A DNA stretch of 47,147 nt. It comes from a phage. Below, piece by piece: positions 9,132 to 12,618 of the stretch; position 1 is the first letter of the stretch, and each line of letters starts with the position of its first letter. The notes beneath the pieces were generated by a model, which saw only the letters and a program-made list of their open reading frames with translations, did no database searches and was not told the origin of the DNA. Position numbers and translations under genes: made by a program. The stretch lies in sequence record PZ787336.1, one strand, 5' to 3'.

Positions 9132-9323
9132 ATGGCAAACATGTCCTACTGTCGATTTCGTAATACAGAGCAAGACTTCAATGATTGTGTTGATGCAATT
9201 GGCAACATTGAGTCTATTGGTGACTTAAGTAATGCAGAACGCAAGTCTGCTGAGCGCCTGTACCATCTTGCTAATGAGTACGTCGCATATTACGAGCAAT
9301 TATTGGAAGAAAGTGGTGAATGA
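9132..9323 (+). CDS. hypothetical small acidic protein
   Basis: 63 aa ORF tightly packed between neighbours. Confidence 0.5.
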   Translation: MANMSYCRFRNTEQDFNDCVDAIGNIESIGDLSNAERKSAERLYHLANEYVAYYEQLLEESGE

Positions 9324-9324
9324 T

Positions 9325-10134
9325 ATGAAAACACTTAGCAAAATCTATTCAGACAAAGAAACGCGCAACGGAATCGCTGTTAACAAAACCTATCTCGTGC
9401 CAGTGGAGCAAATCTATCTGGAGCCGGGATACAACATCCGCGAAGCAGACGAGCAGCATGTGGAGTATTTCGCGCAGTGCTGGGAATCAGGTCAGCCATT
9501 ACCAGCATTAACAGTTATTCCTGATGAGAAGGGAATCCGCATTCTTGATGGTCAGCATCGCTATCTAGGCGCATTGCGTGCCATTGAGCGTGGCGCACCA
9601 ATTGTTCGTATTGAGTGCAAGGATTTCACAGGAGGCGAAGCAGATAAAATCGCCTTCATGGTGTCGTCCAGTCAGGGTAAGCAGCTTGACCCGTTTGAAC
9701 GCGCAAAGGCTTACACGCGACTGAAGGGTTTTGGCTGGACCAACGAGGAAATCGCCAAGAAGGTAGGGCGCTCAGTTTCTGACGTGCAGATGCACCTGTC
9801 ACTGGGTGATGTGCCAGCCGAAGTAAAAGCGCGAATCAGTGCAGGGCAAATCAGCTATGCAAATGCCGTAGCAGTAACTCGCGAACATGGCGATGATGCG
9901 GTTAAAGTTATCGACGAGGCAGTCGAAGAAGCGAAGGCGCAAGGCAAGGATAAGGTAACGGCGAAGGTGCTTAAGTCGAAAAAGATTAAGCCAGTAGACC
10001 GACTGATTGAGTTACTGAAGCCAGCTGACCACGTTATTCTTCCTGCTGGTCATGTAGTGGCAGAGAATGAGGAGTTTATCCAGATTCCTGTTGCTGATAT
10101 TCACGAGGTGATGGCAATTCTGGAGAAGATGTGA
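9325..10134 (+). CDS. ParB-like nuclease domain protein
   Basis: N-terminal ParB/Srx-like region with the GIRILDGQHRYLGA-type motif; start at ATG 9325 directly after the upstream stop. Confidence 0.7.
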   Translation: MKTLSKIYSDKETRNGIAVNKTYLVPVEQIYLEPGYNIREADEQHVEYFAQCWESGQPLPALTVIPDEKGIRILDGQHRYLGALRAIERGAPIVRIECKDFTGGEADKIAFMVSSSQGKQLDPFERAKAYTRLKGFGWTNEEIAKKVGRSVSDVQMHLSLGDVPAEVKARISAGQISYANAVAVTREHGDDAVKVIDEAVEEAKAQGKDKVTAKVLKSKKIKPVDRLIELLKPADHVILPAGHVVAENEEFIQIPVADIHEVMAILEKM

Positions 10135-10931
10135 TGATGGTCCACTATTACAATGAGTGGGACAAGGGCGCAGCGGCATGGCTGCGTGAATTAATTAACA
10201 ATAAACTAATTCCTTACGGATATGTCGATGAACGATCAATCACCGAAGTCACCCCTTCAGACCTGGAAGGATTTACACAGTGTCACTTCTTTGCCGGAAT
10301 CGGAGGGTGGCCCCTTGCACTCCAGCTGGCAGGAATACCAGAAAGCACTCGACTCTGGACAGGATCACCACCTTGCCAGCCGTTTAGCGTTGCCGGTAAG
10401 TCTCTCGGATTTGACGACGATCGACACCTTGCCCCAGCATTTCTCAGGCTCATCAGAGAGTGCAAGCCTGAATTGCTGTTTGGAGAGCAGGTTGCAGCAG
10501 CAATTGGGAAGCACTGGCTCGATTTTGTATTCCTTAACCTGGAAGACAAAGGCTACGCCTGCGGGGCGTCAGTATTGCCAGCTTGCAGCGTCGGCTCTCC
10601 ACAGGAAAGGAAAAGAATCATCTTTGGCGCGAGGATGGGCGACACCAACGGCGCGAGGATGGAAGGATTACGGGAATCTCAGCAAGTCATTTTACAGAAA
10701 GGACGGGAAATTCAGGAACGATACTCTTTATCGCCAGATGTGGCTTCATGTTTATGGGATTCATGGAAACCCAACCATGGAGCAGATAAGGAAACTAGAG
10801 TCATACCAGGCGGATTTTGCGAGGCAACTCATGGGGTATCCGCAAGAGTGGGACGATTGCGCGGTTATGGTAATGCCATAGTTCCACAAGTCGCAGCAGA
10901 ATTCATTAAAGCATTCATGAGGTCCGTTTAA
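10131..10931 (+). CDS. DNA cytosine-5 methyltransferase (orphan); reading frame in the middle part uncertain
   Basis: motifs FAGIGG (I), PPCQPFS (IV), SPQERKRIIF (VIII), GNAIVP (X) in this frame; RQLMGYPQEW (motif IX-like) lies in the overlapping frame 10222..10881. Confidence 0.75.
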   Translation: MMMVHYYNEWDKGAAAWLRELINNKLIPYGYVDERSITEVTPSDLEGFTQCHFFAGIGGWPLALQLAGIPESTRLWTGSPPCQPFSVAGKSLGFDDDRHLAPAFLRLIRECKPELLFGEQVAAAIGKHWLDFVFLNLEDKGYACGASVLPACSVGSPQERKRIIFGARMGDTNGARMEGLRESQQVILQKGREIQERYSLSPDVASCLWDSWKPNHGADKETRVIPGGFCEATHGVSARVGRLRGYGNAIVPQVAAEFIKAFMRSV

Positions 10932-11104
10932 TGACACCAGAACAATTCATTGAAAAACAACTTCGCACCAAGCTGCCTGACATTGACCAGATGGCAATTG
11001 ATGCGGCGATTCAGTATTACAAGCGCAATCAGAGCGCAAAGAAGGGTGGCATTTTTGAAGAATGCCTGAAGGTTGCAAAACAACACATGATTAAGGTGAA
11101 GTGA
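10931..11104 (+). CDS. hypothetical small protein (57 aa)
   Basis: ATG overlaps the methyltransferase stop (TAATGA); coupled to the next ORF. Confidence 0.3.
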   Translation: MTPEQFIEKQLRTKLPDIDQMAIDAAIQYYKRNQSAKKGGIFEECLKVAKQHMIKVK

Positions 11105-11244
11105 TGAAACTAAAAATTAGCAAATTATTACTTGAATCAGCATTAATATTTCAGGGTCGCAATGATGTGCGATATTACCTGAATGGAATCTGCTTCATGC
11201 CTGATGGTCGCATTGCATCAACTGACGGTCATCGCGCGTGGTGA
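11104..11244 (+). CDS. 46-aa ORF resembling a fragment of the DnaN beta sliding clamp
   Basis: NDVRYYLNGICFMPDGRIASTDGHR matches the conserved DnaN stretch QDVRYYLNGMLF...ATDGHRLA; stops after 46 codons, terminator follows. Confidence 0.4.
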   Translation: MKLKISKLLLESALIFQGRNDVRYYLNGICFMPDGRIASTDGHRAW

Positions 11245-11279
11245 ATATGTCGTATCTTACAGCCATAGAAACCCCCAAT

Positions 11280-11306
11280 AAAAAACCCGCATTATGCGGG
11301 TTCAGT
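11280..11306. terminator. rho-independent terminator (strong on minus strand)
   Basis: CCCGCATtATGCGGG hairpin flanked by A6 on plus, which is T6 on minus. Confidence 0.65.
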
Positions 11307-11504
11307 TTACTCTGCTTTCTTTTTCTTTGTCGTCTTTTCCTGCGGGGTTGCGACTTCGAAAGACTTTTCCAGTTCTGGCATGATGCGCAGCTTTGGTAGC
11401 AGATGCTCGGCTGGTTCGGTAATCACCTCGCCAAGCTGCAATTCACGAATCTTGCCTTTCTCTTTAACAAAGATTCCGCGTGCGATGACTTCGTATTTAG
11501 CCAT
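11307..11504 (-). CDS. hypothetical protein downstream of major capsid gene
   Basis: 65 aa ORF, Lys-rich C-terminus, followed by terminator. Confidence 0.4.
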   Translation of the reverse strand: MAKYEVIARGIFVKEKGKIRELQLGEVITEPAEHLLPKLRIMPELEKSFEVATPQEKTTKKKKAE

Positions 11505-11547
11505 TATTCACCTCAAATTCACAAAGGGGCTATTCGCCCCTTTTCGA

Positions 11548-12618
11548 TTACTTCGGAGTTTGCGTACCGTAGCCGTTGAACACTTTTGACTTGCCGGTGA
11601 AATCCTTACGAATTTGCAAACCGAAAGCTGACCACACCATAAAGTTAAAGTTATCGTGCGGATTGTCACGGGCTGCCGCATAGGTGGAAACAGGCTGAGC
11701 AACACGCGGACGGATGTACATGTCGTTGCGAACGTAGCCAACGAAGTGGTTGCCAGTCAGCAGGAAGTTGGTGCCAATCTTGCCGATGCGACCATTGCCG
11801 AACTGCGTGATGTACTGCTCAACTGTGCCGCCTTTGAAGCCAGCCGCATCAGAATACGGACGCATGAAGCTACGACGCACTGCCGGGGAAACCCACAGAG
11901 TCACCTGCTCAAATACGTTCTGCGCATCCAGAATAGCCTGAAAATTCTGATTGAAGAAGGTCACGATTTCGTCTGGCGTTGCGGTTTGCAGGTCGATATT
12001 CAGACCGCCGGAAGCATTCAGGTTAACCTGAACAGTGTTCGGGTGGTTGGTGATACCGTAGCCAGTGTAAACGCCGTTCACGTTCAGAGTCTGGTCGCCA
12101 GTCAGCAGGTATTGCGCCATATCTGAACGCAGGTTGAAGGTGACGTTAGCCTGATCATCCAGCAGCGGGTCGAAACCTTCAGACTGCATACCCAGAAGTT
12201 CTCGCCATTCGCGGCTGTAGCCAGTCTTGAAAATTGGAATTACATCGCCAGTGTAATCGTAGCGAGTTTTATCCAAATCTTCCGGCTCCTGACCAGACAG
12301 AGTGCGAACAACCTTACCAGCATCGGAAGCAATGCGGCTGATTGCCACAGTCTTACCGATATTGATGTTTGCCGCGATACCCATCAGGTCAGCCATCATA
12401 TCCTGACCAGCTTCGTTGCGGAAAACGCGGGTGGTGACGTTATCAACATCGCGCCAGTAATCCTTCGTTACCAGTGCGGTGGCGTTAACACCATAGGTTT
12501 TCGCCAGTTCAGCCTCTGCATTGCAGAATACCTTGCGGTCGATAGTGAGATGTTTCCACTGGTCAGCCACCACTGCGGAGTTGGCTACCAGGTCTTTGGT
12601 AAAAATAATCTTTTCCAT
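11548..12618 (-). CDS. major capsid protein
   Basis: 356 aa ORF following protease-scaffold and decoration-like genes; size and position typical. Confidence 0.7.
   Translation of the reverse strand: MEKIIFTKDLVANSAVVADQWKHLTIDRKVFCNAEAELAKTYGVNATALVTKDYWRDVDNVTTRVFRNEAGQDMMADLMGIAANINIGKTVAISRIASDAGKVVRTLSGQEPEDLDKTRYDYTGDVIPIFKTGYSREWRELLGMQSEGFDPLLDDQANVTFNLRSDMAQYLLTGDQTLNVNGVYTGYGITNHPNTVQVNLNASGGLNIDLQTATPDEIVTFFNQNFQAILDAQNVFEQVTLWVSPAVRRSFMRPYSDAAGFKGGTVEQYITQFGNGRIGKIGTNFLLTGNHFVGYVRNDMYIRPRVAQPVSTYAAARDNPHDNFNFMVWSAFGLQIRKDFTGKSKVFNGYGTQTPK

What the first reader, a model, noticed from the sequence alone, without database searches (positions are those of the whole stretch)
11104..11244. 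46-codon ORF that looks like a fragment of the beta sliding clamp (DnaN)
The peptide ...NDVRYYLNGICFMPDGRIASTDGHRAW matches the conserved DnaN segment QDVRYYLNGMLF...ATDGHRLA, but the ORF stops after 46 codons and a terminator follows. The flanking residues are diverged, so it is not a recent capture from the host. It could be a remnant of a phage clamp gene or a clamp-mimicking peptide.
Basis: partly seen in the sequence, partly recalled or inferred. Interest (0 to 1): 0.5.

Follow-up and report, generated by a model that had tools for sequence, protein, structure and literature searches.

The report
Deletion stub of phage mini-clamp gene
The 46-codon ORF is the leftover front quarter of a roughly 178-residue clamp-like gene that related phages carry intact; a deletion of about 1.2 kb removed the rest, so it is an ordinary gene remnant and not a new kind of peptide.

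Summary
An ORF at 11104-11244 encodes 46 residues carrying the DnaN motifs DVRYYLNG and TDGHR, and a terminator hairpin follows at 11283-11303.

Skatevirus-type relatives (HC6, ZCEC08, Bas77, Skate, seszw and others) have a 178-179 aa gene at exactly this position. The window matches it (93% amino-acid identity to Bas77) up to base 11237. The next 29 bases (11238-11266) are the reverse complement of the first ten codons of a convergent ~272-aa gene. One deletion of about 1.2 kb therefore fused the two genes. The missing 132 codons are nowhere else in the window, and the junction occurs in no public collection searched.

The parent family is a real, diverged homologue of the bacterial beta clamp:
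- Its profile matches E. coli beta at E = 4e-29.
- The AlphaFold model has pLDDT 97, and its best fold matches are beta clamps.
- It covers only domain II plus the last half of domain III.
- Its most conserved residues are those of the partner-binding cleft.

The stub encodes 7 of 20 cleft positions and cannot form the cleft. Engineered seszw mutants that lack the gene are viable. Verdict: a pseudogene of an annotated, dispensable, uncharacterised family. Interest is low.

The parts
10931..11104 (+). Upstream 57-aa gene (PHROG 4439, function unknown). Its stop codon TGA (11102-11104) overlaps the stub's ATG by one base, so the stub is probably still transcribed and translationally coupled.
   Evidence: The same gene and the same overlap are present in HC6, Bas77 and ZCEC08.
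11093..11098 (+). Shine-Dalgarno-like AAGGTG, five bases upstream of the ATG at 11104.
   Evidence: Read directly from the sequence. Its function is inferred.
11104..11244 (+). The 46-codon ORF: a truncated allele (pseudogene stub) of the phage short beta-clamp-like gene.
11104..11237 (+). Segment homologous to codons 1-45 of the 178-aa clamp-like gene of relatives. It encodes the equivalents of E. coli beta residues R152, L155, T172, G174, H175, R176 and L177.
   Evidence: DNA alignments; BLASTP mapping to E. coli DnaN.
11238..11266 (-). Remnant of the first ten codons (MAVRYDIFTT) of a convergent ~272-aa gene (PHROG 5335, function unknown). The gene is intact in HC6, ST1UNAM, CF-SP1 and many Klebsiella phages. 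Read on the plus strand, this remnant supplies the stub's last codon (W46) and its stop codon.
11237..11238 (.). Deletion junction. About 1225 bp are missing relative to ST1UNAM and about 1254 bp relative to HC6. The lost sequence comprises codons 46-178 of the clamp-like gene, its own terminator, and all but the first ~10 codons of the 272-aa gene.
   Evidence: A 23-base sequence spanning the junction has no match in the viral, metagenome or genome collections or in 50,697 phage records.
11283..11303 (.). GC-rich hairpin (AACCCGCATTATGCGGGTT) shared by all relatives. It is the terminator at the end of the convergent capsid-side operon and probably works in both directions.
   Evidence: It is annotated as a terminator in phage Skate.
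11307..11504 (-). Conserved 65-aa gene (PHROG 2138), the last gene of the convergent capsid-side operon. It is intact and marks the right-hand limit of the rearranged region.

Best explanation
The ORF is a non-functional remnant. An ancestor of this Skatevirus-type siphophage had an HC6- or ST1UNAM-like arrangement: ParB-like gene, C5-methylase, 57-aa gene, 178-aa clamp-like gene, terminator, then a convergent ~272-aa gene, a second terminator and a 65-aa gene.

A single illegitimate deletion of about 1.2 kb joined base 134 of the clamp-like gene to the complement of base 29 of the 272-aa gene. The reading frame then runs into a TGA after one new codon. This leaves a 46-residue product containing the first beta-alpha-beta-beta stretch of clamp domain II. 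The stub is probably still transcribed and translated, because its ribosome-binding site and its overlap with the upstream gene are intact. It cannot form the fold or the partner-binding cleft and is most likely degraded.

The intact parent protein is a diverged, roughly 1.5-domain homologue of the bacterial beta clamp, made of domain II plus the last beta-alpha-beta-beta-beta unit of domain III. It keeps the residues of the clamp's hydrophobic cleft. I infer that it binds clamp-binding-motif peptides of a host or phage partner and does not encircle DNA.

Shown: the homology, the deletion, and the dispensability of the parent gene in a relative. Inferred: that the stub is inactive, and what the parent protein does.
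For: 1. Full-length gene at the same position in relatives:
- Bas77 (L002:3405-3941), HC6 (L001:3578-4117), ZCEC08, KpV2811, Bas78, KFSST1, LPST10 and seszw all have it.
- In tblastn, 287 of 299 matching phage records cover at least 80% of the protein.
- 769 clusters in the 5.8-billion-protein set match; nearly all of the 120 listed are 178-193 aa.

2. Where the match stops:
- The DNA alignment follows the relatives up to 11237. The next 29 bases match the start of the convergent 272-aa gene.
- Residues 47-178 have no match anywhere else in the window (best E about 1).

3. The locus is prone to loss:
- KpV2811, Bas78 and KFSST1 retain only 4 codons of the 272-aa gene.
- ZCEC08 has an internal deletion of that gene, and LPST10 and Bas77 have none of it.
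- CF-SP1 has an unrelated membrane-protein gene in place of the clamp-like gene.

4. The parent gene is dispensable. About 25 of 72 records of phage seszw, nearly all of them CRISPR genome-reduced mutants, lack it. One example is MZ375324, where genes 16 and 17 are absent. These were plaque-isolated mutants (PMC9825161).

5. The parent is clamp-like:
- The family profile matches PDB beta clamps at E = 4e-29.
- The AlphaFold2 model has pLDDT 96.9 and pTM 0.91.
- All top Foldseek matches in the PDB are beta clamps at probability 1.0.

6. The cleft:
- 9 of the 12 most conserved family positions map to cleft residues (p = 8e-8).
- Cleft residues L177, P242, V247, M362, P363, M364 and L366 are documented in PMC2685083 and PMC7261172.
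- The stub encodes only 7 of 20 cleft positions.

7. The stub differs from 115 close homologues at only two residues. One is W46, made by the junction. The other is G18, where all 115 have alanine, which fits relaxed constraint.
Against: - There are no reads or expression data, so neither the reality of the deletion in the phage population nor the fate of the peptide was observed.
- The true parental sequence is unknown. Only imperfect microhomology (GTCA within 8 of 12 matching bases) is seen at the junction when compared with ST1UNAM and HC6, so the deletion mechanism is not defined.
- A single substitution at an invariant site (A18G) is weak evidence for decay.
- The stub keeps an intact start context, so a residual activity cannot be excluded by sequence alone.
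Confidence: 0.88

Rival explanations
1. Assembly or sequencing artefact: the phage really carries the full 178-aa gene, perhaps with the 272-aa gene as well, and about 1.2 kb was lost during assembly or in a minority deletion variant.
For: The junction is found in no other record: not in 50,697 phage genomes, not in IMG/VR, JGI metagenomes or GTDB genomes, and not in the gene-position index.
Against: - No repeat long enough to collapse an assembly exists at the two ends; there is only a 4-base exact match.
- Both flanks are collinear and in the correct orientation.
- Independent natural deletions at the same locus occur in ZCEC08, KpV2811, Bas78 and KFSST1.
- The gene is experimentally dispensable, so a real deletion is unremarkable.
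Confidence: 0.05
2. A functional micro-protein: the 46-residue peptide is retained because it acts on its own, for example as a clamp-mimicking or dominant-negative fragment that binds host replisome proteins or the mini-clamps of co-infecting phages.
For: - The start codon, the Shine-Dalgarno-like site and the coupling to the upstream gene are intact.
- The peptide holds the most conserved motif of the family, DVRYYLNG...TDGH.
- At least one other truncated homologue ends at nearly the same point (P0222, 57 aa).
Against: - The stub is unique to this genome.
- Its C-terminus is an accident of the junction.
- It lacks the P242/V247 and M362-L366 equivalents, without which the E. coli cleft fails (PMC2685083).
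- It covers about 40% of one domain and is unlikely to fold alone.
- It carries a change at a residue that is invariant in 115 homologues.
Confidence: 0.04
3. A fragment of the host dnaN gene picked up by the phage.
For: The motif resembles E. coli DnaN residues 149-178.
Against: - The parent protein is only 29% identical to E. coli DnaN.
- The stub is 93% identical to phage homologues in a syntenic position.
- The family has 1,663 representatives at 50% clustering; of the 150 listed, almost all full-length matches are 170-215 aa.
Confidence: 0.01
4. A split or interrupted gene (intron, homing-endonuclease insertion or programmed frameshift) whose remainder is encoded elsewhere in the genome.
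For: Homing endonucleases are common in these phages: HNH genes occur in Bas77, and a gene is inserted next to the capsid gene in ZCEC08.
Against: tblastn with residues 47-178 finds nothing in any frame of the 47-kb window (best E about 1). The sequence after the break belongs to a different, convergent gene.
Confidence: 0.01

Closest known systems
Short beta-clamp-like proteins of Skatevirus-type and other siphophages. These form PHROG 3007 and are annotated 'DNA polymerase III beta subunit', 'beta clamp domain protein' or, wrongly, 'RusA-like Holliday junction resolvase'. Examples: Skate, seszw gene 16, LPST10_00037, Bas77_0042.
   Same: The first 45 residues are 93% identical. The genomic position is the same, downstream of the ParB-like gene, the C5-methylase and the 57-aa gene. 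The start context is also the same.
   Different: The window copy has lost residues 46-178 and ends at a junction-derived stop codon. No other deposited genome has this allele.
Bacterial beta sliding clamp DnaN (E. coli, PDB 1MMI/2POL)
   Same: The parent family is homologous to residues 136-366: profile E = 4e-29, and the top Foldseek matches have TM-score about 0.65. It conserves the equivalents of cleft residues R152, L155, T172, G174, H175, P242, N320, Y323, M362, P363 and R365.
   Different: - The parent lacks domain I and the first half of domain III, which in E. coli beta contains the dimer-interface residues (I272, L273; recalled from memory, not checked here).
- It also lacks the second helix of domain II.
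- It falls below the curated DnaN thresholds: 31.5 bits against 137.65 for TIGR00663.
- The stub itself holds only about 49 residues' worth of domain II.
Burkholderia phage Bcep781 gp15, annotated 'DNA Pol III b subunit fragment'
   Same: It belongs to the same short family (tblastn 31% identity over 94% of the query). It also sits next to, and is transcribed away from, the head-gene cluster.
   Different: It is a distant member and is full length (193 aa). It shows that short clamp-like phage proteins have been annotated as such for a long time, although I found no functional study.
Small phage proteins that target the host clamp, such as Staphylococcus phage Twort gp168. This is recalled from memory and was not checked here; it is a lead only.
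   Different: As I recall, those proteins bind the clamp and are not clamp homologues. Nothing here shows that the stub binds anything.

Membership tests
Bacterial beta sliding clamp (DnaN; Pfam PF00712/PF02767/PF02768; TIGR00663) | Score above the curated family thresholds | tested here: not met
   Stub: PF02767 gives 16.2 bits against a cut-off of 27, E = 0.013. Full-length parent: PF02768 gives 17.2 bits, PF02767 15.2 bits and TIGR00663 31.5 bits against 137.65.
Bacterial beta sliding clamp (DnaN; Pfam PF00712/PF02767/PF02768; TIGR00663) | Three-domain protomer of about 366 aa | tested here: not met
   The stub is 46 aa. The parent is 178 aa and aligns only to E. coli residues 136-251 and 311-366. 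There is no domain I.
Bacterial beta sliding clamp (DnaN; Pfam PF00712/PF02767/PF02768; TIGR00663) | Detectable common ancestry with DnaN in sequence and fold | tested here: met
   The family profile matches PDB clamps at E = 4e-29. In Foldseek, beta clamps rank first at probability 1.0. This is shown for the parent family; the stub inherits it through 93% identity.
Bacterial beta sliding clamp (DnaN; Pfam PF00712/PF02767/PF02768; TIGR00663) | Complete hydrophobic partner-binding cleft (L155, T172-L177, P242, V247, N320, Y323, V360-L366) | tested here: not met
   The stub encodes 7 of 20 cleft positions and lacks everything from P242 onward. The parent family conserves most of them.
Bacterial beta sliding clamp (DnaN; Pfam PF00712/PF02767/PF02768; TIGR00663) | Head-to-tail ring that encircles DNA and is loaded by a clamp loader | not testable with these tools
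   No multimer prediction or biochemistry was available. The missing domain I and missing half of domain III argue against a canonical dimeric ring (inference).
Phage short beta-clamp-like family (PHROG 3007) | Significant match to the family profile | tested here: met
   E = 1.7e-18 and 68 bits, but only over profile positions 1-45 of 190.
Phage short beta-clamp-like family (PHROG 3007) | Full length of about 170-215 aa, ending in the conserved M-P-x-R motif | tested here: not met
   The ORF stops at codon 46. P106, Y128, M174 and P175 are absent. The missing part is nowhere else in the window.
Phage short beta-clamp-like family (PHROG 3007) | Syntenic position in Skatevirus-type genomes | tested here: met
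   The upstream genes and the downstream terminator and 65-aa gene are the same as in HC6, Bas77, ZCEC08, KpV2811, LPST10 and seszw.
RusA Holliday junction resolvase (the label that PHROGs and RefSeq give this family) | Sequence or fold similarity to RusA | tested here: not met
   The full-length proteins give no RusA Pfam hit at E <= 1; the only hits with any support are the DnaN domains. Profile searches of the PDB return only beta clamps, and all 50 top Foldseek matches listed are clamps.

The most novel reading that the evidence does not exclude
The stub is a natural null allele of a gene family whose biology is unexplored. That family would be a stand-alone 'clamp cleft module': domain II plus half of domain III, with no ring-forming parts. 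It would capture clamp-binding-motif proteins, such as host Pol III alpha or delta, Hda, translesion polymerases, or a phage partner, either to recruit the host replicase to phage DNA or to divert it from the host. On this reading the window phage shows that the module can be lost in nature, as in the seszw deletion mutants. A more radical reading, that the 46-aa peptide itself is active, is not excluded, but I put it at no more than about 4%.
Probability: 0.3. Interest if true: 0.5.

Novelty: new member of a known kind. Interest (0 to 1): 0.17.

Why it matters
For this window it matters little. The ORF should be annotated as a truncated pseudogene of the phage beta-clamp-like gene, not as a new peptide. 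Its loss agrees with experimental evidence that the gene is non-essential in the laboratory.

Three by-products are more useful:
- The widespread label 'RusA-like Holliday junction resolvase' for this family is wrong.
- The family is large: 1,663 representatives at 50% clustering. It is a compact clamp homologue of about 1.5 domains whose strongest conservation falls on the partner-binding cleft. That gives a testable hypothesis for an uncharacterised phage protein.
- The interval between this gene and the capsid-side operon is a recurrent site of deletion and insertion in these phages.

Tried and rejected
- **Exact-sequence look-ups.** Neither the 46-aa nor the 47-aa product is on record. P0252 is also not on record.
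- **Junction scans.** A 23-base sequence spanning the junction had no match in IMG/VR, JGI metagenomes or GTDB genomes.
- **First structure prediction.** With 19 close homologues it was unusable (pLDDT 40). It was replaced by a run with 111 diverse representatives (pLDDT 97).
- **Literature.** Searches on short phage clamps, 'DnaN-like', 'half-size' and Jerseyvirus found nothing on this family. One search failed on term length. The supplementary gene table of the seszw genome-reduction paper is not held, so I inferred dispensability from the deposited mutant genomes instead.
- **Early misclassification.** I first placed the phage among Jersey/K1G-like phages (Guernseyvirinae). The taxonomy lines of LPST10 and seszw and the BASEL paper place its relatives in Skatevirus.
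- **Clean microhomology at the junction.** Not found; there is only GTCA within 8 of 12 matching bases, and the true parent sequence is unknown.
- **Chimeric third motif.** I considered that the third motif of the parent protein mixes the two halves of domain III, because HMMER aligns it to either half. I rejected this in favour of the last half for three reasons: the identical EIGFNxxY and VVMPMR motifs, the conserved N and Y cleft residues, and better superposition (TM-score 0.65 against 0.42) when Foldseek skips about 80 clamp residues.
- **Split gene.** Rejected by tblastn.

Full report
**What is in the sequence**

An ORF runs from the ATG at 11104 to the TGA at 11242-11244 and has 46 codons. 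The mechanical ORF list extends it by one codon to a GTG at 11101. Its ATG overlaps the stop codon of an upstream 57-aa gene by one base (TGATG), and an AAGGTG lies five bases upstream. A GC-rich hairpin at 11283-11303 follows. It scores as an intrinsic terminator on the minus strand and is stable on the plus strand as well (-12.8 kcal/mol, z = -2.8).

**Is the DnaN resemblance real?**

On its own the peptide is only borderline against Pfam: DNA_pol3_beta_2 gives E = 0.013 and 16.2 bits against a cut-off of 27. The evidence becomes decisive through the relatives:

- The peptide matches PHROG 3007 at E = 1.7e-18.
- It is 93.5% identical to the first 46 residues of a 178-aa protein of Escherichia phage Bas77.
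- A profile of 19 close family members matches E. coli-type beta clamps in the PDB at E = 3e-15.
- A profile of 111 representatives, each at most about 50% identical to the query protein (P0006), matches at E = 4e-29. It covers clamp residues 136-303, with a second stretch on 313-366.
- BLASTP of a family member against E. coli DnaN gives 29% identity (E = 4e-13) and places the window peptide on about residues 130-178.

**What the ORF is**

The surrounding 3.5 kb is about 96% identical to Escherichia phages HC6, 6947, HC8A and ZCEC08, and to Bas77-80. These are small siphoviruses of the Skatevirus group (taxonomy lines; BASEL paper).

All of them carry a 537-540-base gene (178-179 aa) directly after the 57-aa gene. 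It is annotated 'DNA polymerase III beta subunit', 'beta sliding clamp' or 'RusA-like Holliday junction resolvase'.

The window follows this gene base for base up to 11237 (…GGTCATCGCGC) and then departs. The next 29 bases, 11238-11266, are the reverse complement of ATGGCTGTAAGATACGACATATTCACCAC. This is the start (MAVRYDIFTT) of a convergent ~272-aa gene of unknown function (PHROG 5335). That gene is intact in HC6, ST1UNAM, CF-SP1 and many Klebsiella phages.

After the remnant comes the terminator that all relatives share. One deletion therefore removed four things:
- codons 46-178 of the clamp-like gene;
- that gene's own terminator;
- the intergenic spacer;
- all but ten codons of the convergent gene.

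The deletion measures about 1225 bp against ST1UNAM and about 1254 bp against HC6. The stub's last codon (W46) and its stop codon come from the other gene read backwards.

Only imperfect microhomology (GTCA within 8 of 12 matching bases) is visible at the ends, and the true parental sequence is unknown. The missing 132 codons are not elsewhere in the window. This rules out a split or relocated gene.

**How unusual is the deletion?**

The exact junction is in none of 50,697 phage records. It is also absent from IMG/VR, JGI metagenomes and GTDB genomes, and the peptide is absent from the gene-position index. The locus itself, however, is unstable:

- LPST10 and Bas77 have nothing between the clamp-like gene and the shared terminator.
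- KpV2811, Bas78 and KFSST1 keep a first terminator plus only four codons of the 272-aa gene.
- ZCEC08 has an internal deletion of that gene.
- HC6 has it intact.
- CF-SP1 has an unrelated 119-aa membrane protein where the clamp-like gene should be.

Other truncated family members exist in metagenomic data. One 57-aa product breaks right after the same DGHR motif, on a short contig.

**Is the parent gene needed?**

A CRISPR-based genome-reduction study of the Skatevirus seszw deposited dozens of plaque-isolated mutants (PMC9825161). An 800-base query spanning the gene and its flanks matches 72 records at 99% identity or better. The gene alone matches only 47. The remainder, for example MZ375324 and nine others listed, retain only about 130 bases of flank. 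In MZ375324 the annotation jumps from gene 18 to gene 15. The gene is therefore dispensable for plaque formation, and a natural loss is not surprising.

**What the parent protein is**

The family is large and consistently short:
- 769 clusters in the 5.8-billion-protein set match; nearly all of the 120 listed are 178-193 aa.
- 1,663 representatives at 50% clustering match at E <= 0.001; of the 150 listed, almost all full-length matches are 170-215 aa.
- 299 phage genomes across enterobacterial, Vibrio, Burkholderia, Acinetobacter and other hosts carry it.

With a diverse alignment, AlphaFold2 gives a confident model (pLDDT 96.9, pTM 0.91). All top Foldseek matches in the PDB are bacterial beta clamps at probability 1.0. 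The best superpositions (TM-score about 0.65) skip about 80 clamp residues. BFVD contains many viral proteins of 178-250 aa with the same fold (TM-score 0.8-0.9).

The protein corresponds to clamp domain II, without that domain's second helix, followed by the last beta-alpha-beta-beta-beta unit of domain III. It ends in the same VVMPMR(L/I) motif as E. coli DnaN. Domain I and the first half of domain III are absent.

The twelve positions conserved in at least 90% of 111 diverse members, excluding Met1, are D21, R23, Y25, L26, G28, T40, G42, H43, P106, Y128, M174 and P175. Nine of these map to residues of the clamp's hydrophobic partner-binding cleft: R152, L155, T172, G174, H175, P242, Y323, M362 and P363 (hypergeometric p = 8e-8).

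Part of my cleft list comes from memory of the structural literature. L177, P242, V247, M362, P363, M364 and L366 are documented in PMC2685083 and PMC7261172.

From this I infer that the family binds clamp-binding-motif peptides and does not form a canonical ring. This is a hypothesis, not a result. The relatives encode a primase, an SSB and an exonuclease, but no annotated DNA polymerase. That would fit a role in dealing with the host replicase.

**Consequences for the stub**

- It encodes 7 of the 20 cleft positions and none of the P242/V247 or M362-L366 equivalents. Deleting M362-L366 alone disables the E. coli cleft (PMC2685083).
- It covers less than half of one domain.
- Compared with 115 close homologues it differs at only two residues. 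One is the junction-derived W46. The other is G18, where all 115 have alanine. This is compatible with relaxed constraint but is a single event.

The most likely state is a transcribed, perhaps translated, but inactive remnant.

**Comparison with what is known, and verdict**

The short clamp-like phage proteins have long been annotated; for example, Bcep781 gp15 is labelled 'DNA Pol III b subunit fragment'. I found no functional study of them. The 'RusA-like Holliday junction resolvase' label from PHROG 3007 has no support in any search.

The finding is a new, truncated allele of a known gene family. Interest is low. The parent family is a reasonable target for follow-up in its own right.

Noticed in passing
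Relatives: L002:3405-3941 (Bas77), L004-L007, and RefSeq records NC_0546xx: The family is widely labelled 'RusA-like Holliday junction resolvase', taken from PHROG 3007. Every sequence and fold search here returns only beta-clamp homology, so the label appears to be a propagated annotation error.
   Followed up: yes
Window 11238-11282; L001:4118-5009 (HC6); L003:2052-2205 (ZCEC08); L004-L006:852-936: The interval between the clamp-like gene and the shared terminator is a recurrent site of insertion and deletion. A ~272-aa gene of unknown function (PHROG 5335) is intact in some phages, reduced to 4 codons in others, internally deleted in ZCEC08 and absent in LPST10 and Bas77. The HC6 annotation starts this gene 9 codons too early, inside the terminator.
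   Followed up: partly
L012:1668-2027 (Salmonella phage CF-SP1, Swiduovirus): At the position of the clamp-like gene this relative has an unrelated 119-aa protein with hydrophobic, membrane-like segments. This looks like gene replacement at the same slot.
   Followed up: no
L001:3405-3581 (HC6): HC6 has an extra 58-aa ORF inserted between the 57-aa gene and the clamp-like gene. It is absent from the window, Bas77 and ZCEC08 and has no Pfam hit.
   Followed up: no
L014:1297-1470 (Logan contig SRR10682540_1024390): A 57-aa truncated homologue (P0222, 67% identical) breaks just after the same DGHR motif and continues into unrelated sequence. This is either a coincidence or a hint of a fragile site. 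The contig is only 1.6 kb and could be chimeric.
   Followed up: partly
L003:2520-3326 (ZCEC08): ZCEC08 carries an 807-base gene inserted between the 65-aa gene and the major capsid gene. The window and Bas77 lack it. It is cysteine-rich at the N-terminus and may be a homing endonuclease; this was not tested.
   Followed up: no
Window 10222-10881 (+), inside the C5-methylase gene at 10131-10931: A 219-codon ORF lies in an alternative frame and is fully nested in the methylase gene. It is most likely a chance open frame. The methylase frame has the Pfam hit (E = 1e-21).
   Followed up: partly
L015 (Shigella phage EP23), L016 (Bcep781), window 9232-12618: In three unrelated genera (Skatevirus, Dhillonvirus, Naesvirus) the short clamp-like gene sits beside the head-gene cluster and on the opposite strand. 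In Pantoea phage LIET2 (L017) it lies among helicase, nuclease and RecA-like genes instead. The recurrent capsid-side placement is unexplained.
   Followed up: no
Phage records MZ375324, MZ375329, MZ375335, MZ375338 and others (seszw mutants): About 25 deposited genome-reduced seszw mutants lack both the clamp-like gene (gene 16) and the small upstream gene 17. They form a ready-made set of viable knock-outs for phenotyping.
   Followed up: partly
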